Assembly (NCBI GenBank): GCA_010093605.1
Contig: MU004184.1
Coordinates: forward strand, 1,374,801-1,438,800
Reading direction: 5' to 3'
From: Lophium mytilinum
Lineage: Eukaryota
Length of the DNA: 64,000 nt
Both the position numbers and the translations under genes were made by a program. Under the pieces are notes generated by a model that did not search any database, was not told the DNA's origin, and was given only the letters and a program-made list of their open reading frames with translations. Shown one piece after another: positions 10,312-55,061 of this stretch (position 1 is the first letter of the stretch; the number at the start of each line of letters is the position of its first letter).

Positions 10312-11394
10312 CACCGGTCAACTAATTACTTTCTGTAATGTACTCCGGGGACCTCACTGAGTGGTTACTTCAGAAGTGTTTCGAAATCTGATCGAGCTAG
10401 CCATTGACAAAGGTGAACTCTCCTGGGGAATTCCGTCTGAGCAGAATTCCGCAGGGTATCCCGCCTTTCCAGTCCGTTCTCCTGCAGTATAGCGAGAAGC
10501 CTACCCAATTTGGAATGCAGCCTATGGACAGAAAACTGGAGAAATACGCCCTATGTAGCTTGGTAATCCATATTACACGTCGGAGATCGCCACAACTCAA
10601 CTTCAACTAAGCTCCTGTTCCTGGATGCCGATCTCGAAGTGCATGAAATGCCAGAAATATTCTTCTTGCCAACATACCGAATCTTTTTATAACAAGAACC
10701 AAGATCCAGCTAGGTCTGCTTAGATTTGAATAACCCGTTGGCTCGCTGCCTGCTGTGTTCCAGCCTTCGCTTCCCTCGGGGTTTTATTATGCTTCCGTTA
10801 TGGCTATCTTGATTGCCATCGTCCGCTCGCTCATGATCCGCGGCCGACACAGTACCTAGGTGGGGATTAGATTGATTACCTAATTGGTAATGAGGCTAAT
10901 GACGACAACACAAATGCATGGTAGAACAAAGGACTAGTTGATTTTCTGTTGCTTCATACCCTCTCCACCGTCAAACATATCCAGAAACTCTCTACTAACA
11001 CTTGTCGACATCGAATAACATGGGTTAGCCAGCCCGAGGTCTGATCTACATCTAGCGCTAGTCTCCGCACTTCGCAGGCCTCTCACCCCTCTCACTGCGC
11101 ATTCAAATTGGTCATCCGGCACTGTTTGCCGTGCTCATGCCTTTTTAAGACAGGGCGACATCCTCGCCCTGCCTGTATCGACTATCACTTGGACGGCACG
11201 ATATACCATTGTCCGCGGCCTACCCATTGTCCGTGGCCTACCCAAATGTTCTGCTTTGGACCTGCATCCTGACCTCGAAACCACAGCCAATGAACGTTCA
11301 TTTCACTGGACATTTCTAGAGATATAATATTATCGAGCAACATCGCGTCTAATATTCCGGAAACTTGATATCAGCCTTTTGTGCGACCCTGAAA

Positions 11395-13002
11395 ATGCCC
11401 TCAGACCTTGACCTCAGCGAAAAGGCATTCGAGACAGATCTCGAAAAAGACCTGGAATCCGATATTGGAAACACCCCTCTACCAAACCAAGAGAAGGCGT
11501 TCGAAGCAGGTGTACTAGACCCAGACATCCCACCGATACAAGAAGAAGAAGAAGAAAATAGCATCCAGCCTGACCCCAATGCCCTCCCAAGGCCACCCGA
11601 CGGAGGGTTACATGCCTGGATGAAGGTGTTCGGAGGCTTCCTCGTATATATCAATATTTGGGGGTTTACATTGAGTTATGGTGCCTTCCAAACGTACTAT
11701 CAACACGACCTGTTATCCGACTCTACCGCTTCTGCCATAAGCTGGATAGGGACTGTGCAAGCCTGGCTTCTTATCATGGTTGGCGTGCTCTCCGGCCCAC
11801 TGTTCGACCTGGGGTATTTCAGATCTATGCTCTACGTTGGGAACTTTCTGATTGTTATTGGAATCATGATGCTCAGCCTAGCAACCAAGTACTGGCAAGT
11901 ATTTCTCGCGCAAGGAATCTGCATGGGGCTTGGCGCCGGGCTGTTATACATACCTAGTCTCGCCCTCGTTGGTATTTGGTTTGAAAAGAGGAGAGCGCTA
12001 GCGCTGGGAGTCGTGATGTCAGGCACCGCTGTCGGTGAGTTCTACCATATTCCCACCATCTGTAGCGCCCCGAGGTGATCATTGCTCTATCACTCTTCTT
12101 TGGCCTCAGCTCTACATAGTCGGGACACACGAATGCTAACTTCGCCAGGTGGTGTCTGCTATATAATTGCGTTCAACAAGCTCGTCCCCAATATAGGGTT
12201 TCCCTGGACAATGCGCGTCCTCGGCTTCATCGCGCTCGCGCTCGCCATCATGGCCATCCCCTGCCTACTCAGCGGTTCGGCCATGCTTGCCCGCCCCCGC
12301 AAGGCTCGCAGTCTCTTCGACAAGTCTGCCTTTTCCGACCCCCTTTTCATCCTCTTTACATGCTCAACCTTCACAACGTTCTTAGGATACATCGTACCCT
12401 ACTTCTACATCGCAGCGTACGCACAAGACAAGCTACAGACATCTGAATCAACCGCCCTGTACATACTCGTGGTGTGTCTTGCTGGGTCGTTCTTCGGGAG
12501 ATTGTTATGGGGCTATGTGGCGCAAAAGAGTGGAAATATGGTGGCGTGGCTAGGATGTGCGGTTGTGAGTGGGGTTGTCGGTTTTAGTTGGATAGGGATT
12601 GATCATGAGAGCAACTTCATTGCTTTCTCAGTCATGTGGGGTAAGTTGAATAAGAAAAGATGAGTGTTGACTACGTCGGCATGCTAATCTTACCTTGCAG
12701 GTTTCTTCTCCGCCAGTCTCGTCACCCTCCCTGGTTCCGCTTTCCCGAATATCTGCCCCGATCTCTCTAGACTTGGTACCCGGCTCGGCATGTCGTGGGG
12801 AATCTCGTCTATTGCATCCCTCATTGGGGCACCTATCGCTGGAGCGCTTCTTAAGACCCATACAGTTGCTGATGGGACGAAGAAGATGAATTTCCTGGGT
12901 GTGCAGGTGTGGAGCGGGGCGTGCTTGCTTGCGGGGTCGGTGTGGTTGGCAGTGCTCTGGGTCGCCACTGTAAGGAAGCAGAAGACGGGGTGGTTCATTT
13001 GA
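11395..13002 (+). CDS. MFS monocarboxylate-transporter-like (Mch family) permease
   Basis: PPDGGLHAW signature and multiple TM helices. Introns at 12035-12148 and 12641-12700. Confidence 0.93.
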
Positions 13003-13304
13003 GAGGATGGCATGTGGAAAGTTCAGAAGAGAAAGTTGTAGATCCGGACCATGACTGCTCGAGTCGAGACAGGATACGCTCTAGCCGCGTCCGCATCAAT
13101 TTAACCACCGAAGAAATGAAGAGCGAAATAGATTGGCTGGATGTAAGTAACGATGGTTAGGAAAAGAAGAAAACGAAGTGATGTATAGCTTCAAGAAGGA
13201 AGAGCTGGAATATCAAGACAAACGCGCGGGAGCAGGAGTACGAGAAAGTGAGAAAGAGAAGGAAATCAAGATACCATTTTGCTTGAAGCATAGCGGGACC
13301 CGAC

Positions 13305-13915
13305 ACTGAAGCTGAATCTGTGAAAAGTCTTTCATACAGTTGAGATTGTAGCTTCTTGAAGAATATCGTTCTGCATCGTGGTCGGAACTTTCTTACAAAA
13401 CACTACTTCATCCTCTCTCTATCTTGGATATACGGTTGAAGTATACGGTCACTACCCAGTTGATGACCACACTTGGTAAATGTGTTTTGGAGTACTTATT
13501 TGCCAAGAGTATTATTAATAGTATAGGCATGGCAGGAAAGCTATGTTAGTTAAAGATAAGTGCTGACTGCAAGAGACATAGGCGCTAGATGGGTACTGTG
13601 TCTATGATGAATGTGGTTACACGGTTTTATCTGTAAGTCTTTGCAACATTAATATCCAGGGCGTAACCGCAGAGGCTTCCCTTCTTCACCGCAACCTGAA
13701 TGCGCTATGCCCATGTAAGGTCTAAGTTAAAATATGTACCTACAAACACACGACTAGGTCTTATATTTCCCGACGTTTGCACCTCGTGTGTAGCGCATTT
13801 TTCTAATCTGACATGATACTGAGTGTTCATTAGATCCACCCAGCGTCTTCTAAAAAGGTGGTTACACGGTTAGATCCGTAACTCTTTCCAACAATTTGAC
13901 CCATTCCGTGGCCTC
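13305..13915 (-). repeat. Array 1 of the ~80-bp fixed-spacing repeat family (3 clear copies, 2 eroded)
   Basis: Minus-strand cores start at 13881 (TTACGGATCTAACCGTGT), 13636 (TTACAGATAAAACCGTGT) and 13351 (CTACAATCTCAACTGTAT). Each has YACG 29 bp upstream and a GAY motif 33-34 bp downstream. Weaker copies at about 13765 and 13447. Confidence 0.8.
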
Positions 13916-15061
13916 GCAGTCTCCATAAATCTCAATCAAGCAAGCAAAACTCATATACTCCATGACTCGGCGCCTAAGAGCAACAGCAAGCCCTCGCAAG
14001 ATCATTACATAGCCCCTTCACGAATTCAAGTTCCATTATCCCACGCAATCAACTCCAGTCTTTCTACCCTACTTCGCTGCACTCCCTCCCTCGCCTTTCG
14101 TCCAACTACACCCATTAGCCCACCATTCTCTACTAAAAACCGCAATTCAGGCAAGGCTAACTCACTTATTCCACATCTTCCCAATGATCCCAGGCTGCCC
14201 GACCTTCTGCTCCCCAAAACTAGCACGCCGCGCCGCCGTATCCGGGTTCCGATTATGTGCAGCGAGATTCGCGAAGAGGGGTTTGGTCACTGAAGACTAA
14301 TATCACTGTCATCACTACCAGGTCGATTTACAGCACGAGAGGTAAGATGGGTGAATTAGGCGTGAAAGGAGCATACCCTCCGCCGCTCACTCGTGCTCTC
14401 CGCAGGCTTGTCCGGGCTCGCTTGGTCGTTTGAGGCCATGTCTATCGCTCTTTATGCTTGAAGTTGTTACTTCAGGGTTCCAATTGAGTTCCGAGGGTGG
14501 CAGGTTATAGAGAGGTGTGCTGTGGTCTCGTAGCTGTGGGACAAAGAGCTGGACTCTCGCGGGCTTTATATCACACCACTGCTCTACCACTAGGAGCTTA
14601 GATCTTGGTAGCTACCCCGCACACGTCACCAGTTGAGCTCTTCGATCAGCAAGGGCCTAATGACAGGAGCGAATCGGGATGCATCGTCGACTACCCGATT
14701 TAGACTAGCGCGGATTGGATGGGTTTGCGGGGTAGCTTTTGTCAGCGGGCTGTGTCCATCTGAGCAGTTGTGGGAATCGAAAGGAGAGAAGCGAGCTACA
14801 CGGTGTAGTGGTCTGACACTTTACGAGGAACCCGTTACAAGGAGAAGATGGGACAGCTTTGATGAAATCTAGATTCGACCAATGCGATTCAATCACATGA
14901 CTACCCACTGCACATTAACTACCCCTTTTCACGTCTACAATCTTTCTTTTCCTTCCCTCATAGGTCCTTGTGAGTATACACCTCCTCCCGAGAAGCTGCT
15001 GTCATCCGCGAGGCGCTGCGCTAGTTGACATCGATCGCAACGAGCTATGTTTAGCTTGATC

Positions 15062-24476: not shown

Positions 24477-27400
24477 ATGTCTGGTCTTGCAATTGACCAA
24501 GCGGCCGCCGCGCAGGCTATCATTGACGACGAGCACGATACCCAGCACGATGAGCATCACATCCACCGGCACTCGGTTCACCACCGGCTGCGGGCAAGCA
24601 GCTCTATCATGCAATTGAAGAAGATTTTAGGCACGCCTCTCTTCTCCTGCACCTCGTCCAGCTCTATGGCTAACATTTTGAAGTTGCCAACCGCGGCGAG
24701 ATCCCAATTCGCATCTTCCGTACCGCCCACGAGCTGTCCCTCCACACCGTGGCCGTCTACAGTCATGAGGACCGCCTCAGCATGCACAGGCAAAAGGCCG
24801 ACGAAGCCTACGAGATTGGACACCGGGGACAGTACACGCCTGTTGGAGCTTACCTTGCCGGCGACGAGATTATCAAAATTGCCCTTGCCCATGAAGTAAG
24901 AATATATTCAACACGGGGACGACGATGTCAAGCTGACCCGAAATAGGTCAATATGATACATCCAGGCTATGGATTTTTATCTGAGAACGCTGAATTTGCG
25001 CGCAACGTGGAGAAGGCAGGTCTCATTGTAAGTCTCACAGCAGCATCTCCTTGTATCGCGTCGGCAGCTCGCAGTGTTTTTGTTGAGGGCGGGGCGGAGT
25101 CCGAGGGGCATACGGCCGCCGGCCCAATTGACGCAGCTCGGCCTGTCTCAGCGGGACCCTTGGCGAGATCGACCGCGTGGGACACAGCATGCCCATTGTT
25201 ACTTTTGCTACGCGTGGACACCTGCTCACCGAATCTAGTTTGTGGGACCGTCCCCCGACACCATTGATGCCCTTGGCGACAAGGTCTCCGCGCGCAGGCT
25301 CGCCGTCAAGTGCGACGTCCCGGTTGTCCCCGGCACCCCCGGGCCGGTCGAGAAATTCGAGGAGGTCAAGGAGTTCACTGACCAGTATGGCTTCCCGATC
25401 ATCATCAAGGCTGCCTTTGGCGGCGGCGGGCGAGGCATGCGTGTGGTCCGAGAGCAGGGAGAACTGAAAGAGGCGTTTGAGCGCGCGACGTCAGAGGCCA
25501 AATCGGCATTCGGCAATGGCACCGTCTTCGTCGAGCGCTTCTTGGACAAGCCGAAGCATATCGAGGTCCAGCTGCTGGGCGACAACCTCGGCAACGTCGT
25601 GCATCTGTACGAACGTGACTGCAGTGTGCAACGCCGGCACCAGAAGGTCGTCGAGCTTGCTCCCGCCAAGGATCTACCCCAGGAGACCCGTGAGGCTATC
25701 CTCAACGACGCCGTCAGGCTCGCCAAATCGGTCAACTACCGCAACGCAGGCACCGCTGAGTTCCTCGTCGACCAGCAGAACCGCTACTACTTCATCGAGA
25801 TCAATCCAAGAATGTAAGTCTCACCGCTCCTCTATAGCCATGCCAAGCTGCTATGCTCCGGAGGTATCACTGCCAAGGTATTGTGTTGCTGATCCATAAG
25901 ACAGCCAAGTCGAACACACCATCACTGAGGAGATCACCGGCATCGACCTAGTCGCCGCCCAGATCCAGATCGCCGCTGGTGCGTCGCTCGAGCAGCTTGG
26001 TTTGACCCAGGACTCCATCTCCACCCGCGGCTTTGCCATTCAGTGCCGTATCACCACCGAGGATCCTGCCAATGGCTTCGCCCCGGACACGGGAAAGATC
26101 GAAGTCTACCGTTCTGCTGGCGGCAACGGTGTTAGGTACGTCTCATCTCGCGCAGTTCATACAGTCCTAGGCCACAAGTCTGGGCACGGGCTCGCTCCAA
26201 CTTGCCCACCCAACACCACTGTTGGGGGTAGCCTGGTTGCTGAGTAGGCAATTAGTCAAGAAGCAGCCTAATCTGCACTGCTTGAAGCTTGACATCGCCC
26301 CTGCGTCTTCGAAACCCTGTGGGGGTACCCCAAGCAGTGGCGGACCAGTGTGCCCAGACGTGTGGCCTGTCACTATAGCTGGCGCAACCCACTAATCTCA
26401 CATCTCGTAGACTGGACGGAGGCAACGGCTTTGCTGGTGCCATTATTACCCCCCATTACGACTCCATGTTAGTCAAGTGCAGTTGCCATGGCTCCACATA
26501 TGAGATTGTACGACGAAAGATGCTTCGCGCCCTCGTTGAGTTCCGTATCCGTGGCGTCAAGACCAACATTCCCTTCCTGATCAAGCTTCTCACCAACCCC
26601 ACTTTCATCGAAGGAACTTGCTGGACCACCTTCATCGACGATACGTAAGTTGCCAAGCTGGCTTGTACTCACACCAGAATTACCACTGACTTCTACTAGC
26701 CCTGCGCTTTTCGACTTGGTTGGCAGCCAGAACCGTGCTCAGAAACTCCTTGCTTACCTTGGTGACCTTGCCGTCAATGGCAGTCAGATCAAAGGCCAGA
26801 TTGGTGAGCCCAAGTTCAAGGGCGAAATCATCATGCCAGTTCCCCACGATTCCAATGGCAACAAAGTCGACACTTCACGGCCTTGCCAGAAGGGATGGAG
26901 GAATATCATCGTCAAGGAAGGTCCTGAAGCCTTCGCCAAGGCGGTTCGAGCAAATAAGGGGTGCCTGGTCATGGATACAACATGGCGCGACGCTCACCAG
27001 TCGCTCTTGGCCACCCGTGTCAGGACTGTTGACATGTTAAACATTGCCACAGAGACCAGCCACGCCTACAGCAATGCTTGGGCACTTGAGTGCTGGGGTG
27101 GAGCTACTTTCGACGTAGCCATGCGATTCTTATATGAGGATCCGTGGGACAGACTGAGGAAGATGAGGAAGCTTGTACCCAACATCCCCTTCCAGATGCT
27201 TCTCAGAGGTGCCAATGGTGTTGCGTATTCATCGTAAGTGTCACGTGCTTTCGCGATTCTCACGTGCTAACAATTATAGGCTTCCCGACAATGCCATCTT
27301 CCACTTCTGTGAGCAGGCAAAGAAACAGTACGTAAGCCCCCAATATAGATAACCGGTTTCCCAGCAATATTTCTGTTTGAAAACTACTCAGAGAGTATTC

Positions 27401-29317
27401 CAAGGCAACCACTGTCCACTGTACGCCACTGCTTGGGGTACCCCCATAGGTTTCGAAGACTTGAGGGCGATGTCAAAGTTCAAGCAGTGCATATTAGACT
27501 GCCTCTTGACTGATTGCCTGCTCAGCAGTCAGGCTTACCCTAACAGTGGTGTTAAGTGGGTAAATTGGACAGTGGTGTCTTGGAATTCCCTAAAGGAGTG
27601 TTTTACGCAGCATAACTTGTCCTTAATATCGGTTTCCTTACTCTGGTTTTGAAAAATTTGCTGACTTTATTGCCACCTTAAGCGGAGTCGATATATTCAG
27701 GGTATTCGACGCCCTCAACGATGTTGACCAGCTGGAAGTCGGTGTCAAGGCCGTCCTTAAGGCTGGTGGTGTGGCTGAAGGCACCGTCTGTTATTCGTAA
27801 GACCCTGATTACCCTTACATCCTGAACAGCCTACTGACTGGTTTGTAGCGGTGATATGCTGAACCCCAAAAAGAAGTACAATCTTGAGTACTACATGAAC
27901 GTGGTCGACAAGATTGTAGGCATGGGTGCACACGTTTTGGGCATCAAGGACATGGCCGGTGTCCTAAAGCCCAGGGCTGCTACCTTGCTTATTGGAGCTA
28001 TCCGAAAGAAGTATCCGGATCTTCCAATCCACGTCCACACCCATGACTCTGCCGGTACTGGTGTCGCCTCCATGGTTGCCTGCGCTTATGCTGGCGCTGA
28101 TGCTGTGGACACAGCGATTGATTCGATGAGTGGTATGACTTCCCAGCCCAGCGTTGGCGCCCTCCTGGCTTCCCTCGAGGGTACTGATCATGACCCTGGT
28201 CTCGATGGACACATGGTCAGGCATCTGGACAGCTACTGGGCACAGCTCCGCCTGCTGTACTCTCCCTTCGAAGCCGGTCTTACTGGCCCCGATCCCGAAG
28301 TCTACGAGCATGAAATCCCTGGTGGACAGCTTACCAACCTCATCTTCCAGGCCTCGCAACAAGGTCTTGGCGAGCAATGGGCCCAAACTAAGAAGGCTTA
28401 CGAGCAAGCCAATGACCTCCTCGGCGATATTGTCAAGGTCACTCCCACCTCCAAGGTTGTCGGCGACCTGGCCCAGTTCATGGTCTCGAACAATCTCTCC
28501 TATGACGACGTGCTCGCAAAGGCCGAGCAACTCGACTTCCCCTCCTCCGTCCTCGAGTTCTTCGAGGGCCTTATGGGCCAGCCCTACGGCGGATTCCCCG
28601 AGCCCCTCCGCTCGCAGGCCCTCCGTGACCGCCGCAAGATGGATAAGCGCCCCGGCGCTTACCTCGAGGCTGTCGATCTCGTGAAGGTTAAGGCTGACCT
28701 TAAGTCCAAGTGGGGCGATGCCACCGAGTGCGACGTCGCGTCGTACGTCATGTACCCCAAGGTCTTTGAGGACTACAAGAAGTTCACGACGAAGTACGGC
28801 GACCTCTCTGTTCTGCCGACACGCTACTTCCTCGCCCGTCCTGAGGTTGGAGAGGAGTTCCACGTCGAGCTGGAGAAGGGCAAGGTGCTTATCCTCAAGC
28901 TTCTTGCCATCGGCCCATTGAGCGAGCAGACTGGGCTGAGGGAGGTGTTCTACGAGATGAACGGCGAGGGCCGAACCGTCACAGTCGAGGACCAGCACGC
29001 GGCGGTTGAGAACGTCAGCAGGCCGAAGGCCGATCCGACGGATAGCAGCCAAGTCGGCTCGCCAATGGCTGGTGTGGTCGTTGAGGTGCGCGTACATGAC
29101 GGCTCGGACGTCATGAAAGGAGATCCGATTGCTGTGCTCAGTGCTATGAAGATGGTAAGTTCTCTCACAATCATTCCAGCTAGCTTGACAAAATGCTTAC
29201 ATCAATTCACAGGAAATGGTCATCTCGGCACCGCACTCCGGCAAGGTCAGCAACCTAGGCGTGCGCGAGGGCGACTCAGTCGGCGCGCAGGACTTGGTGT
29301 GCAAGCTTGTCAAGTAA
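24477..29317 (+). CDS. PYC1: Pyruvate carboxylase
   Basis: [29 protein letters not shown] and the biotin site AMKM. Ten introns: 24631-24683 (GC-AG), 24896-24946, 25028-25238, 25814-25904, 26136-26410, 26645-26699, 27234-27279, 27328-27682, 27797-27848 and 29155-29212. Confidence 0.99.
26136..26410 (+). mobile_element. Introner-like intron, family B (PYC intron 5, 275 nt)
   Basis: Inverted repeat AGGCCACAAGTCTGGGCAC (26169-26187) / GTGCCCAGACGTGTGGCCT (26350-26368), 18 of 19 matching. Homologous to the MFS intron at 50256-50578 and to the insert in PYC intron 8. Confidence 0.8.
27328..27682 (+). mobile_element. Introner-like intron, family A, carrying a nested 161-nt insert (PYC intron 8, 355 nt)
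   Basis: Ends GTACGTAAGC...TGCCACCTTAAG align end to end with the MFS intron at 49494-49293. The insert at 27412-27572 is homologous to the family B core. Confidence 0.9.
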
Positions 29318-46783: not shown

Positions 46784-47234
46784 TTCGGGTATCGATCTGC
46801 GTCTTTTGCTGTTTATATCTCGATTTGGTTTCATAAACTATGGTGTGGCCGATCTAATGCGATCTTGGTGGCTGTGATATCTATCTTCCTCGGCGATTTA
46901 GCGCATGGGCGGGCTGCTGCTGTTGTTGTATTTTTAGACTACGAGATATCCCCAGATGACTTTGATGCCGGTAATGATAGCCTTGGTTCAAACCTCTTAA
47001 GTGTCTGTTTGGGGCTATTGTTGTTTGTTGTAACTGTGTTTTGTCTGCAAGTTGCTCGAGTCGTTTGAGGTCACTCGTCAAACGGGACGAGTATGCCCCC
47101 TATCCGTTACAGCTATGTCCAGCCCGCTCGACCTCAACAACGCTAGGAGCCACTCTGCTGCGTGAAGTATCCACTGTGAGAGCTGACTAGCGGAAATAAG
47201 GGACTTAAAGGGGGTCTCGAGGGGGGTACTTGCT

Positions 47235-48255
47235 GTACCGCATTAGGTGAAACCATTGCAAGTTCTTACGGATTGAACCGTGTAATGCCCAAATTTGTAA
47301 AGGCGGCGTCAATGCAGCAACGTGGAGGGGATCGGTCACGTATCCAGTGCAAAGGGGGAAACATTCACATATTGAACTGTCTGAGGAGCTTTATACCAGA
47401 CGCGATTTAGAGGTACCGTCCTCATTATCTCGAACCTTTTGAACCACGCGTCGGTTGAAAATGGTAGAAAGAATCACAGATCAAACTGTCTGATGCGCTT
47501 TTGTATAGACGTGGCGTGTACACCGAACCCCTTTTGGTGTGATTTTTACTTGGCCTACCGTAGTCACACATTGGGCGCGAGTAGTGGAAGAGTCACAGAG
47601 TTAACCACGTAACTACTTTTGTTTGTTTGATACAGCGTTTGTTAAGTGTCACCTTGATGTAGTGATTCCCCTTACGCTCTCTGGTCACGCGTTGGAGTTA
47701 TATGGTGGGAATAGTTACAGGTCTAACCGCCTGATGATAGCTTATTCAGACGCGGCGTGCACGCGAGAGGCACATGGTGGACACTTTACGTAGTTGTTGA
47801 TAGTGGTATAATCAATCATCTATGCAATACCGTCGATTGAGGCTAGTTGAATGGTTGCGATCATGTGGAGGGTGGAGGTAAGTCGAGGGCACGCCCTGGG
47901 TCAATATGTTAGAAGGAGTCACAGATTCAACCGCGTAGATGAGATCTTAGAGTACGGGCGTACGCGCCGCTTAGTGGTTATTCCAGGCTGCTCAAGCAAC
48001 GCGATGGTGCTATGAGGGAGGAGAAGTTACAGAATGAACCGAGTGATTGTATTTTTCGAGAGACACGGCGGAGATGCGGTAAAGTTGGTGAACGCCGTTT
48101 GATCGGCAAAAAATTACATCAAAGGAGACTAGAGTTGGAGAGAGAATGGAGTGGAGGTAAAGTAGAGTGGACTGAGGCCACGCGTTGAGTCGAAGAGTTG
48201 CAAAGTTTTACACATTTGTTGGTGGAATCAGTTTTAGTAGAGGCGGCATGGCCGT
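47235..48255 (+). repeat. Array 2 of the ~80-bp fixed-spacing repeat family (8 clear copies, 1 eroded)
   Basis: TYAC cores at 47266, 47365, 47474, 47593, 47715, (47816), 47919, 48027 and 48208. A CACGC-like motif lies 28-29 bp upstream and a GACGCGGCGTG-like motif 32-36 bp downstream. Spacers are unrelated to each other. Confidence 0.9.
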
Positions 48256-48628
48256 GGCATGGACGCGCAGTGACCATGAATGGGAGATGACTGGCTCTGT
48301 ATTAAGTAGAGAGCTAAGGACAGACAGTGCCTATATTAATGTACAATTATGTTCGGAGCCATATCTACAGAACAAGGGTAGTCTAATGGTATCGTTGTGA
48401 AAGTCTATAGTCACCGAAAGAAGAAGTAAAGAAGACGTAGGAGACGTGCTTATGCAGTAGAGGTGAGAATCACCTGAGGAGGTTGGTCGCACAGAGGGAT
48501 TCGCAGACCCTAGGGGCTCCCATGGACGCCCGAAAATGCTAATTAAAGGAAATGGACAAGGCTGTCAAGTGGTGCCGGTGTGTGAGTTCTGATGCCAGCT
48601 TTTCAAAGTGATTCAACCCCAAGTCATC

Positions 48629-50961
48629 TCAAAGCTTCAATTGGAACCTCGGATTTGTCCGAATTCGCTCACCGTATATCTTAAAGATAACGGGGACGGG
48701 GATCAAGGCAAGGGCAACGAAGCCTAGAAGGGAATTACCCCAGCCAAGACCGAGCTTGTTGTACATTGATAGACCTGCTAGAGGAAGTAGAGCACCGAAG
48801 ATGGAACGGATGACCGTATTGGCGGCCATCGCGGAAGCAGCGTGCAGAGTAAAGGCATCAACGAGGTAAGTTTGGATGGTCAGCTGTGAGAAATCCGTTA
48901 GCTAAGCCCACTGCTATAATTGAAGAGTGTTCACTCGGAAGGACACATACAAAGTTGCTCAGCATTCCTATTCCGACAAACGATGTACCAATGAGTGGGA
49001 CAATCCAGTGGACGTGTTTATCTGTTCCCCAGCCGTACATAAAGAGCCCGACGGGCAAGCAAATGCCGCCAGGAACAGTCAATATCATTGGCAGCCGATC
49101 TTCCGGCTTCAGAGCCTTGCCCTTCGCCTTCTGTCTCTTGAGGACTCGATCGCTAGCAACACCTAGAATGGCGAGGCCGAGAATCATACCTATGCCAGTG
49201 GCAATGTAGGTAAGTCCGACTGTTCCAGACGAGAAATGATAGTTTTCTTCAAAGACAAAGGTGATGGTCGTGAACAGGAGGTAGAGTATGCCCTTAAGGT
49301 GGCAGTAAAGTTAGCAAATATTTCAGAACCAGAATGAGGAAAACGATATCGACTTCTTGAAACAACTGTCGCGTGAGACACTTCTTCGGGGGATTCCAAG
49401 ACACCAATATGGTTGTCTCAGAATACTCCCTGAGTAAGTTTTCAAACGAACAAATTGCTGGGAAAGTTTTCATCTTTATCGTGAGCTTACGTACGTACGC
49501 AACGGCCGAGTAAAAGGACATGCAAAAGACGATAGGTGATGTCAGGAGCATCTTCGTGGGCCGCACAATGCTGAGACGGAACAGCTCCTTCGGCGAGATG
49601 GGTGACGTGAGCTTGGATCGGAGATTCGGGTTTCCGGTCTCTTTTCGAAGCCTTGCGGCTTTTCGTTCCAGGATTACGGGTGCGTACGTCTCCCGCAAGA
49701 AGACGAAAGCTAGAATAGTGACAACACCGCCCTGTGCGCCAGTGTTAGTATAAGGGGAAATGAAAAAGTAATCGGAAATAGGCTCAGATAAAACATACCA
49801 ATATCGCGATTAGGTAGAATACCCATCGCCATCCTTTTGCTTGTACTAGAAAACCCCCAATTACTGGCCCCACTACAGGTCCTATGAGTGGGCCCATAGC
49901 CCATATAGCCATGGCGCCGCCTCGTTTTTCCACGGGCATCAAGTCTGCGATCGTTCCGCCTCCAATCGTAAGAGGGGCAGATCCGACTGAGCCTTGAAGG
50001 AATCGGAATCCGACAAGCATGTTGAAGTTGCTCGACACTCCACAGGCAATAGTGAAGATGATGAAGAGTATGTTGCAGGCATGGTAGATCCACCTTCGGC
50101 CGTAGAGTTCACTCAGAGGTGCGACAATTAAAGGTCCGAACGCGAAGCCGAGCAGGAAGACGGATACGACGAAGGCTGCAAGAAGGTCTGATTTCTCGTG
50201 AAAGCCAGCCATGACTTCAGGGACGCCAGGGGCGAACATAGAGGATGCGAGAGGGCTGATGAGGTCAGCTGTAGCTCTGACTGGGAATAATAGTACTGGG
50301 CCGTAAGTCTGAGCACACGGTTTTATCACCGCTCAGGTAGCACTCCTAACAGATGAACGCCACTTCGTCGCTTTCGGTTGCAAGCTAGAACGAGATGACA
50401 CTGTCAAGAGGCTACCCGTTGCCAAAGAGCCGGTCTGTCAAGATGCAGCCCGGATTCCATTTCTTGAGAGTTGAGATCGCGTCTAGATTTTATGGAACCC
50501 ACAGGAGTGCCTCGAGCAGCGGCAGGCAAGTGTACAAAGACTCGTGGCTTGTTATGAACGAGGATGGAATGTACTCACGTCACGAAGGTGATAGATGAGA
50601 GAATGGCGATATTTCCCCACTTCAAACCATTCGAAAAGTTCATAGGGTTCTCTGGATCATTTGGGCCGTCCCAAAATATCACATTCGGGTCTGATTCCTC
50701 GGCACCCTCCTCTGGCAGCTTCTCTGTTGTATCCCCCGCATCGTCTATCTCCCCGCTAGACGTGGTGGGATGGCTGATTGCACCTTTTTCGAGGTCGCCC
50801 TTTTCGTGGTCGTGAATTGACGAGCGCTGTCCTGGGGTGTAGACACCTAGATTGGAAGGTACGTCCGCATCGTGGCCTTCTTCGTAGGCAAGCTCGAGCC
50901 TTGGGTTATCAAGGTCATGAATGTGATACGCCGGATTTGAGTAGGAGCCAGGAGTCGCCAT
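48629..50961 (-). CDS. MFS drug:H+ antiporter (DHA1 family)
   Basis: [28 protein letters not shown] and ETYAPVIL motifs. Four introns, including 50578-50256 and 49494-49293. Confidence 0.96.
49293..49494 (-). mobile_element. Introner-like intron, family A, empty form (202 nt)
   Basis: GTACGTAAGCTC...CTTTACTGCCACCTTAAG with a central hairpin GAGACAACCA-TAT-TGGTGTCTT. Homologous to PYC intron 8. Confidence 0.9.
50256..50578 (-). mobile_element. Introner-like intron, family B (323 nt)
   Basis: Nested stems GCCACGAGTCT..GTACAC / GTGTGC..AGACTTACGGC and GCACTCCT / AGGAGTGC. Plus-strand 50399-50555 is collinear with plus-strand PYC intron 5. Confidence 0.75.
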
Positions 50962-53584: not shown

Positions 53585-54000
53585 AAGCACAAGTGCCTGA
53601 TTTGATTCAAACTTCGCATATTTTCGCGAGCGAGCAAGCGCATGTTTTTTCGACTCTTCTCAAGAGCTTCTACTCCTACAAATGACGGACATTCGTAGAT
53701 GACTTTCAGGATGGCGGGATGCCAACACGATACCGCTAGCTTCTAGCGATGATGGAAGGAATAATGGATGGGATGGATTGGAAGGAAACCTTAGATGATA
53801 AATAGGACGGGCATTCATGGCTCCTACATACTGGATATAGATACAGGACATAATAACAATAATTATTACCTACCGAATATGAAGCTTGATGATAAACGTG
53901 AAATCCACTGTGTTGTAGGAATGGTGACTGGCCCATTAAATAGAGGTGTCTACTTATTACCTGTTTCTAACAAAAAGCGACGACCCCACACCATGATACC

Positions 54001-54585
54001 ACGTGCAAGCTGCGTCCAACGAAAACGAGTTCACATGTTTGAGTATGTGACCTTTACAACAGAAAGGCATGAATTTCTCTTGCAAGTATCTCTGCGGGTC
54101 TTTCTAAGGTTTTTGTCATCGACCTGATTTCGATTCTTCGGTTTTGTCTCAAGAAGTAACCACAGCATCTACCCTTTGCGTGCACGCCGCGTCCAGCAAA
54201 ATTATATCTATGTCGTTGAACTTGTCACTCTTTTCAATCTAACGGCTTTACTCATCCCAGGGAGGCCTTCAATTAATCCTCCTCAGCTTCCTACCGGACC
54301 TTTGGTTCTGGGACACAAGTTGACTACAACGCGTGCACATTGCGTCGAACAAGATAAATCTTCAGCGGTTCGAAATGTGACTACTTGTAACTAGGCGGCT
54401 CCAGTTTCCATAGGAAGCCATTCAGTGACTTATTATAAGCCTCCTCACTCAGAGCTGATTTGGAGTCTTCGGAGTTCGGGTAAGAAACGACCAGAATGAG
54501 CAAACGCAGCGTACCTTTGTATACGCTGCGTCTAACAAAAACAGCTTTGTACGGTTAGATCGGGGAGTTTTTATAACTGATGTCA
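54001..54585 (-). repeat. Array 3 of the repeat family (4 copies, ~60 bp conserved)
   Basis: Minus-strand cores at 54050, 54227, 54380 and 54566. In all four, GACGC begins exactly 34 bp downstream (54016, 54193, 54346, 54532). Copy 2 shares GACGCGGCGTGCACGC exactly with the 47715 copy. Confidence 0.88.
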
Positions 54586-55061
54586 ACGGAAGCACTCCCA
54601 AGCGCCTGTGGTCGATCGTCAACTTCCATGGTCCGATTCATGACCTCCAGGCAGTCGAGTTCTGATTTGCACCCAAAAGCACAAGGGTTTTGCCGTACAC
54701 CCCGAATGGAGACCGAATTCTCGGGTTGCGCATCAGGGGCAACTTGACGCCTCAAAACGTTCTAAGGAACTCTAGCTTCCACACTTTTCGGGCTAACAAG
54801 AGTTGCCTTTCTTGGAAGTGAGCCGAGTACAGTCACATGGCAAATGAAAACACATTGTACCGGGAACAAAAGACCGTAGCACACGATCTTTACCATTACA
54901 CCATTCATACCAAAGATGAGACATTATGCAGAACGTCGTCGACCAACCCAACGCCTATCGTGTTTCCGTCCCAACCGCAGCCATCGAGACCCCAACGCCG
55001 CCCATCCCAAGCACGCCGCCACAAATGCACCTATGTTTATTACACAATACCTGAACAACGC

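What the first reader, a model, noticed from the sequence alone, without database searches (positions are those of the whole stretch)
13305..13915. Second array of the same unit, 34 kb away and in the opposite orientation
The reverse complement of 13862-13902 (GGGTCAAATTGTTGGAAAGAGTTACGGATCTAACCGTGTAA) aligns without gaps to 47898-47938 (GGGTCAATATGTTAGAAGGAGTCACAGATTCAACCGCGTAG). The 13636 copy shares ACGCCCTGG with that same unit. The 29/34-bp spacing recurs in three copies (33 bp in one). This makes the unit a dispersed family rather than a local duplication. I saw no flanking homology or transposon ends linking the loci.
Basis: seen in the sequence. Interest (0 to 1): 0.8.

Follow-up and report, generated by a model that had tools for sequence, protein, structure and literature searches.

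The report
Conserved-core repeat arrays between fungal genes
The repeat is real and belongs to a family of short head-to-tail arrays scattered between the genes of this fungus; each copy keeps a fixed 34-base pattern while nearby bases drift, which suggests a landing site for a DNA-binding protein that is not yet identified.

Summary
Confirmed and wider than reported. The copies at 13862-13883 and 13617-13638 (minus strand) are firm; the third (13332-13353) is decayed. They match the 47-48 kb array far above shuffles. A third array lies at 54.0-54.6 kb, and 296 units were found in 56 of 61 stretches examined genome-wide (0 in 1.09 Mb shuffled). Units run head to tail, with periods of about 99-121 or 130-192 bp, never inside a coding call. 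A rigid 34-bp core (GTTRCAAR-nnn-TYACRnWTYnAACCGYRTRA) changes about five times more slowly than neighbouring columns, even at CpG sites and despite a mild RIP signature. There is no RNA structure, no Rfam match, no TIR or shared flank, and no canonical B-box. Best reading: an old dispersed satellite-like family kept as a protein-docking platform, with a Myb-type AAC-N-G reader as a guess. Rivals are a specialised replication origin, a selfish repeat, or biased decay. The preference for gaps between gene tails (32 of 52) is at least partly shared by unrelated arrays in this genome, so it is not specific evidence. The scan earlier noted similar conserved-box arrays here and in other fungi. No binding was tested.

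The parts
13832..13913 (-). Unit A1 (22-bp core 13862-13883), best-kept copy at this locus
   Evidence: (E 3e-14); lies inside a spliced contig of run X3 (13722-14297) with no skip over it
13587..13668 (-). Unit A2 (core 13617-13638)
   Evidence: (E 3e-06)
13302..13383 (-). Unit A3 (core 13332-13353), decayed, not significant alone
   Evidence: 8.3 bits; E = 2; covered by the MFS contig of X3
13481..13571 (.). Probable foreign insertion of about 91 bp between A2 and A3; without it the gap is 194 bp, near the long unit class (inference)
   Evidence: matches part of another contig of X3 whose flanks do not fit here; no second copy in the assembly
11365..13002 (+). MFS transporter gene; its 3' end faces array A
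   Evidence: Pfam MFS_1; introns and contig to 13510
14069..14439 (-). Small 76-aa gene with two introns; its 3' end faces array A
   Evidence: joints 14105/14166 (X3) and 14296/14377 (X4, X5); open frame
47234..48260 (+). Array B: eight units, cores at 47264, 47363, 47472, 47591 (weak), 47713, 47917, 48025, 48206 (weak); between an amino-acid permease (+) and an MFS gene (-)
54000..54600 (-). Array C: four long-type units, cores 54031-54052, 54208-54229, 54361-54382, 54547-54568, with second block at 54072-54167, 54253-54337 (weak), 54401-54492; between a small + gene and condensin Cnd2 (-)

Best explanation
An old, probably lineage-restricted, satellite-like family of short arrays whose units are kept as docking sites for a sequence-specific DNA-binding protein. 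Shown: (1) the unit is dispersed over many contigs in head-to-tail arrays of 1-15 copies; (2) it grows by local tandem duplication, with gain or loss of an internal 11-12-bp ACGC module and internal deletions, and is sometimes copied elsewhere, as between 47 kb and 13 kb; (3) a rigid core from -12 to +22 changes much more slowly than columns beside and inside it; (4) there is no RNA-level signal. Inferred: purifying selection acts on many copies at DNA level, so a protein reads the core.
For: With the AACCG columns masked from detection and pattern-seed units removed, A14, C15 and G17 are still kept in 0.94, 0.93 and 0.85 of 194 units. Among 186 non-seed units columns 0-2 and 24-28 carry 34-51% transversions, against 2-5% at columns 13-17. 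In 91 nearest-neighbour pairs chosen on the spacer only, held-out constrained columns differ in 0.163 of cases and free columns in 0.524 (corrected ratio 0.21); the core CpG is kept in 59 of 84 pairs against 190 of 673 spacer CpGs. Arrays show a mild RIP signature (1.21/0.90 against 0.85/1.18 in non-coding control), yet the core C positions persist. Register is fixed from -12 to +22 in 280-295 of 296 units. No covariation or folding signal. NAACNG stands in 218 of 296 units and the N is the looser position. The genome encodes a two-repeat c-Myb-like protein with KQCRER and NAVKN kept.
Against: No binding, chromatin or replication data exist here. The Myb consensus is recalled, not from a call; it covers 6 of about 34 constrained bases, strict YAACNG holds in only 148 of 296 units, and such Myb proteins are common in these fungi (recalled). 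Unit strand is not tied to gene direction (19 against 13 in convergent gaps, 9 against 7 in tandem gaps), so a polar block to transcription is not supported, and a contig runs through A1. The convergent bias is not shown to be specific: arrays of any family occupy 8 of 36 convergent, 8 of 74 tandem and 0 of 26 divergent gaps (two of the convergent ones are this family). An unrelated array on C1 is built from arms of a hairpin intron element, so this genome makes such arrays from mobile DNA. Ungapped detection favours rigid units, and upstream free columns may be inflated by indels. Conservation across species could not be tested.
Confidence: 0.45

Rival explanations
1. A class of sequence-specified replication origins: ORC-Cdc6 reads the long patchy core, several same-strand sites raise occupancy, and back-to-back pairs help load the MCM double hexamer.
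For: A long core made of short patches recalls the 50-bp K. lactis ACS (PMC8290112, passages). The strongest S. cerevisiae Mcm sites prefer convergent gaps (PMC10945306, passages). Units are independent of gene strand. Seven of eight back-to-back pairs lie 70-93 bp apart (70, 80, 80, 82, 83, 92, 93; 244 is the eighth) at five loci, with unrelated DNA between them. Six arrays lie in about 285 kb of C4 around the window.
Against: No unit in 200 kb of C1, where yeast origin spacing is 30-70 kb. The Y. lipolytica motif matches 0 of 296 units; the P. pastoris TYGAAC core 60 of 296. 0 hits in 824 kb from 78 loci of other fungi, a weak test because arrays are sparse. No skew switch across arrays. Long same-strand arrays are not needed by known origins (recalled).
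Confidence: 0.15
2. A selfish or formerly mobile repeat: the core is read by a transposase or recombinase (or promotes duplication), so only copies with an intact core multiply; the host merely tolerates arrays where there is no promoter.
For: Another array family in this genome derives from arms of a hairpin intron element (77% over 173 bp). Five loci share 60-150 bp upstream at 72-81%, a younger subfamily. Arrays of other families also avoid divergent gaps. Mild RIP signature.
Against: No TIR, target duplication or common end. A RIP-tolerant pattern finds 32 hits (control 8), none heavily mutated, so no RIP-wrecked parent element shows. Nearest neighbours within arrays are only about 68% alike in the spacer (median; shuffled baseline 52%) while the core stays near 85%, so constraint continued after duplication. 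The 12 PIF/Harbinger transposase matches all carry stops and none lies at an array I mapped.
Confidence: 0.22
3. A neutral decaying minisatellite; the apparent core comes from detection bias, context-dependent mutation and patchy gene conversion.
For: Array A is decaying (A3 weak, an insertion, irregular gaps). Many variable columns show CpG- or RIP-type transitions. The genome holds many unrelated arrays.
Against: Conservation survives masking of the core and removal of seeds; CpG in the core is kept 2.5 times as often as in spacers; free and fixed columns alternate at single-base scale, which conversion tracts would not give.
Confidence: 0.1
4. Arrays of extra TFIIIC (ETC/COC) sites: the reverse strand GGTTMGATC is a B-box.
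For: The reverse strand resembles GGTTCRANYC, and ETC sites are extended B-boxes (PMC3395662, passages).
Against: Only 19 of 296 units match GTTCRANYC. The column equal to the contacted B-box C (PMC11724288, passages) is C in 70 of 296 and is among the freest. ETC sites lie in divergent gaps; these lie there in 4 of 52 cases.
Confidence: 0.05
5. RNA-level element: small-RNA genes or intron-like cassettes (CTAAC as branch point, TTTT..TAG as 3' splice site).
For: CTAAC, a T-tract and TAG occur in that order; A14 is the most invariant base.
Against: YTRAC in 122 of 296, both signals in 65 of 296; unit strand independent of gene strand; no skip over A1 in the contig that covers it; no structure, covariation, Rfam or tRNA hit.
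Confidence: 0.03

Closest known systems
Short euchromatic arrays of satellite DNA with a conserved protein-binding box (Tribolium TCAST, dispersed alpha satellite: search listing and abstract starts only; CENP-B box recalled)
   Same: Dispersed short head-to-tail arrays near genes, monomers of about 100 or 165-190 bp, subfamilies, one better-kept box.
   Different: No long parent array was found; units are only 50-70% alike; the constrained part is a rigid 34-bp patchwork; host is a filamentous ascomycete, for which my searches listed no such family.
S. pombe RTS1 region B bound by the Myb protein Rtf1 (PMC10473836, passages)
   Same: Several repeated motifs within a few hundred bases; a Myb-like word in the core; intergenic.
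   Different: RTS1 is one locus with shown polar fork arrest. Here there are dozens of loci, no shown function, no orientation rule relative to genes, and no Rtf1/Reb1 orthologue was identified.
Sequence-specific yeast replication origins: K. lactis 50-bp ACS, P. pastoris GC-ACS, Y. lipolytica motif (passages)
   Same: Long patchy DNA motif, intergenic, independent of gene strand, occasional inverted pairs.
   Different: Sequence does not match; tandem arrays of homologous units; patchy and sparser distribution.
S. cerevisiae ETC and S. pombe COC sites (PMC3395662, passages)
   Same: B-box-like letters on the reverse strand; no Pol III gene anatomy.
   Different: The key B-box C is not kept; convergent instead of divergent gaps.

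Membership tests
Dispersed short-array satellite with conserved box | Head-to-tail non-coding monomers at many loci | tested here: met
   296 units, 222 of 232 neighbours on one strand, no overlap with coding calls
Dispersed short-array satellite with conserved box | A box conserved above the rest of the monomer | tested here: met
Dispersed short-array satellite with conserved box | Long heterochromatic parent array | tested here: inconclusive
   largest cluster seen has 15 units; pattern lists show no long block, but the assembly may collapse one
Dispersed short-array satellite with conserved box | Known protein bound to the box | not testable with these tools
   no binding data
TFIIIC ETC/COC site | Intact B-box GTTCRANYC | tested here: not met
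   19 of 296
TFIIIC ETC/COC site | Preference for divergent gaps | tested here: not met
   4 of 52 divergent, 32 of 52 convergent
Yeast-type sequence-specific origin | Match to a known ORC motif | tested here: not met
   Y. lipolytica motif 0 of 296, TYGAAC 60 of 296; S. cerevisiae and K. lactis matrices not tested
Yeast-type sequence-specific origin | One site every 30-70 kb along all chromosomes | tested here: not met
   0 in 200 kb of C1, six in about 285 kb of C4
Yeast-type sequence-specific origin | ORC/MCM binding and initiation | not testable with these tools
   no data
RTS1/Reb1-type polar barrier | Repeated same-strand motifs with a Myb-type word | tested here: inconclusive
   NAACNG 218 of 296, YAACNG 148 of 296; consensus recalled
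RTS1/Reb1-type polar barrier | Polar arrest of forks or polymerase | not testable with these tools
   no orientation rule relative to genes; forks not testable
MITE or other TIR element | Terminal inverted repeats and target-site duplication | tested here: not met
   no common ends among 58 single-strand arrays, nor in five related loci and seven solo units read by eye
Structured ncRNA or tRNA-derived SINE | Covarying structure or Rfam/tRNA match | tested here: not met
Introner-like cassette | Branch point, 3' splice site and observed splicing | tested here: not met
   65 of 296 with both signals; no skip over A1

The most novel reading that the evidence does not exclude
The arrays are an undescribed class of chromosome-maintenance element in a filamentous ascomycete: multi-site platforms, with back-to-back pairs at 70-93 bp, that specify a subset of replication origins or polar fork barriers by DNA sequence. 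My searches listed no mapped origin motif for these fungi.
Probability: 0.17. Interest if true: 0.85.

Novelty: new variant of a known kind. Interest (0 to 1): 0.52.

Why it matters
Compact fungal genomes under RIP are not expected to keep dispersed satellite-like families, and the cis-elements that organise chromatin or replication in filamentous ascomycetes are poorly mapped (recalled; one search listed four papers, none on this by title or abstract start). A 34-bp constrained core at dozens of mapped loci gives a ready probe for a pull-down, a ChIP or a plasmid-maintenance test. If it is only a tolerated selfish repeat, it still documents how this genome turns short elements into intergenic arrays.

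Tried and rejected
Helical phasing: spacings are quantised with a period near 11.4 bp, but alignments show that gain and loss of an internal 11-12-bp ACGC module explains much of it; not used as evidence. Palindromic pairing TYAC-N12-GTRA: no compensatory change. Ankyrin-like coding of the 99-bp unit: read by eye, stops in frame and periods of 110 and 121 are not multiples of three. First identity test over-aligned (shuffled spacers 0.56) and was replaced. Exact 22-mer in JGI metagenomes: 0; profile on 78 metagenome loci: 0 in 824 kb; direct repeats behind Cnd2 in 8 of those loci: no such array; all weak tests. No run was on record as RNA; X3 is treated as RNA only because its contigs skip introns. 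The tree of units (72-bp alignment, window units plus eight loci) is poorly resolved; one clade (0.88) joins A1, A2 with three B units. Skew switch at arrays: none. The Harbinger Myb-like binding motif was a recalled lead; the paper search found nothing. One Myb match proved to be Eaf1; a third was not read. Sequence look-ups in earlier findings returned nothing. A further random sample on C10 and C13 was not obtained, so genome-wide density rests on 400 kb, whose C4 part left out two known arrays.

Full report
Setting. The window is G000:C4:1374801-1438800 of a 43.4-Mb assembly in 49 contigs. It holds core genes: clathrin heavy chain, pyruvate carboxylase, an M16 peptidase, condensin Cnd2, MFS and amino-acid transporters, a CMAS methyltransferase. 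The Cnd2 protein is identical to one that its source labels Lophium mytilinum, and its next named relatives are labelled Cenococcum and Glonium; that these are Dothideomycetes is recalled.

Observation. Against 150 dinucleotide shuffles the best 41-mer is 32 against at most 28, and the local score 43 against 23.1 +/- 1.8. A matrix trained on seven 47-kb copies recovers the 13862 and 13617 copies at 42.5 and 31.3 bits (shuffled maximum 9.7 +/- 3.4). A profile from 53 units of 20 other loci, found with a pattern drawn from the window but holding no window unit, gives E 3e-14 and 3e-06, and E = 2 for the third copy. So two copies are firm and one is decayed. The gaps are 245 and 285 bp. The second gap contains about 91 bp (13481-13571) that match part of another contig of run X3 and have no second copy in the assembly; without them the gap is 194 bp, near the long unit class (inference). 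BLAST of the whole gaps finds only the unit (best 54 bp, 76%).

The family. The same profile finds eight units at 47.2-48.3 kb (two weak) and an unreported array of four at 54.0-54.6 kb. Genome-wide, core patterns give 58 against 0 and 116 against 5 control hits; a pattern for a second block gives 69 against 11, with further loci. Of 60 fetched stretches around pattern hits, 55 hold units; with the window this makes 296 units, against 0 in 1.09 Mb of shuffles. Of 232 neighbouring pairs 222 lie on one strand. Periods cluster at 97-101, 108-112, 120-121, 134-146 and 165-193 bp. The unit reads T-tract, GTTRCAAR, three free bases, TYACRnWTYnAACCGYRTRA, six free bases, TTTT, TAGACGC, then one to three 11-12-bp ACGC modules. 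Long units add a block TAAATC..AGGAT..GAAGC.CCTC, which precedes the first core in 21 of 58 single-strand arrays and follows the last in 7; short units look like internal deletions (inference). Distribution is patchy: six arrays in about 285 kb of C4 around the window, none in 200 kb of C1.

A and B are one subfamily. B ranks first of 57 loci for the variable upstream 21 bp (0.50); the nearest of 298 other units to A1 is the 47917 copy (0.73), and C ranks last of 57 over the longer span. A local inverted copying event between A and B is the simple reading; its direction is unknown.

Constraint. With columns 13-17 masked and pattern seeds removed, A14, C15 and G17 are kept in 0.94, 0.93 and 0.85 of 194 units; with the whole core masked the figures are 0.84, 0.85 and 0.76 in 185 detections, with 18 hits in the shuffled control. 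Columns 0-2 and 24-28 carry 34-51% transversions. In 91 nearest-neighbour pairs picked on the spacer alone (from 143 long units), held-out constrained columns differ in 0.163 of cases and free ones in 0.524, a corrected ratio of 0.21; the core CpG is kept in 59 of 84 pairs, spacer CpGs in 190 of 673. Arrays carry a mild RIP signature relative to other non-coding DNA. Caveats: ungapped detection favours rigid units, upstream free columns may include indels, and these are paralogues, not orthologues.

Not RNA. No consensus structure, mean folding z 0.24 and -0.02 on the two strands for 99 units, no compensatory pairs, no Rfam or tRNA hit. Branch-point plus 3'-splice-site words occur together in 65 of 296 units. 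In run X3, whose contigs skip introns, one contig covers the MFS gene to 13510 and another runs 13722-14297 across A1 with no skip over the unit. The right-hand neighbour is a 76-aa minus-strand gene with two introns, so array A lies where two 3' ends meet.

Position. By a self-trained coding model, none of 59 arrays overlaps a coding call; of 52 that could be typed, 32 lie in convergent, 16 in tandem and 4 in divergent gaps, against 30 convergent of 119 gaps in the 400-kb sample (Fisher p 1e-5). The one new array in that sample is also convergent. Unit strand does not follow gene strand (19 to 13; 9 to 7). A control weakens the functional reading of position: tandem repeats of any family occur in 8 of 36 convergent, 8 of 74 tandem and 0 of 26 divergent gaps (2 of 136 in shuffles; two of the convergent ones are this family, and some others are simple repeats). 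None of the other arrays scores on this core. One of them is made of arms of the hairpin element in the pyruvate carboxylase gene (77% over 173 bp), so this genome builds arrays from short mobile DNA.

Mobile-element tests. No common ends or TIRs among 58 arrays; five loci share up to 150 bp upstream, a younger subfamily whose similarity fades without a sharp end. A RIP-tolerant pattern finds 32 hits (control 8), none heavily mutated. Twelve PIF/Harbinger transposase matches all carry stops. Eight back-to-back pairs lie 70, 80, 80, 82, 83, 92, 93 and 244 bp apart, the close ones with unrelated DNA between; only 9 of 222 same-strand spacings are 93 bp or less. This is unexplained; with five loci it is a lead only.

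Candidate readers. TFIIIC: 19 of 296 units match the B-box, the contacted C is a free column, and ETC sites prefer divergent gaps. ORC: no match to the Y. lipolytica motif, TYGAAC in 60 of 296; strong S. cerevisiae origins do prefer convergent gaps, but yeast spacing of 30-70 kb does not fit the empty C1 block. Myb: NAACNG in 218 of 296, with the N looser than its neighbours; the consensus is recalled, and none of the 12 papers listed contains it. The genome encodes a two-repeat protein close to c-Myb (E 2e-33). RTS1, four repeats bound by the Myb protein Rtf1, is the nearest working analogy, not a membership.

Other species. No hit in the metagenome scan or in 824 kb from 78 loci of other fungi. 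At the density seen here only one to a few arrays would be expected in that much DNA, so restriction to the lineage is likely but not shown.

Literature. Seen: passages of PMC3945215, 10.64898/2026.03.10.710760, PMC3395662, PMC11724288, PMC10473836, PMC10945306, PMC8290112; search listings and abstract starts only for the satellite papers. Searches listed no description of this family; subscription journals and supplements (including those of the 2026 preprint and genome papers for these fungi) were not seen and may bear on this.

Verdict. Real, genome-wide, constrained at DNA level, function unknown by experiment. Docking platform 0.45 (within it the Myb-type landmark is a guess), selfish repeat 0.22, specialised origin 0.15, neutral 0.10, TFIIIC 0.05, RNA-level 0.03. 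New variant of a known kind; interest 0.52.

Noticed in passing
window 13481-13571: About 91 bp that match part of a deep contig of run X3 whose flanks fit nowhere here; no second copy in the assembly. Could be a mitochondrial or RNA-element fragment inserted in the array; source not identified.
   Followed up: partly
window 26160-27682 and 49293-49494: Long inverted repeats inside the pyruvate carboxylase gene, part of which also match an MFS intron; already noted by the scan as a hairpin intron with a small transposon core.
   Followed up: partly
G000:C1:2162500-2163720 (L205): Head-to-tail array with period 205-226 bp built from arms of that hairpin element (77% over 173 bp): a direct link from a short mobile element to an intergenic array.
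   Followed up: partly
G000:C1:2047500-2048600, 2096350-2096850, 2097480-2100400: Unrelated intergenic arrays with periods of about 106, 149, 151 and 108 bp; the last two are related to each other.
   Followed up: partly
window 14069-14439 (-): Small 76-aa gene with two introns, the first joint seen in runs X4 and X5; missed by plain ORF lists; family not searched.
   Followed up: partly
L038, L039, L040, L056, L059: Back-to-back unit pairs at 70-93 bp with unrelated DNA between them.
   Followed up: partly
G000:C4 near 1612550-1612810: A diverged three-unit variant of the family with an upstream ATGTGAGT-like word, also seen in L052 and L073.
   Followed up: no
G000, 12 places: All PIF/Harbinger-type transposase matches carry stop codons, most of them many, as expected after RIP.
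   Followed up: no
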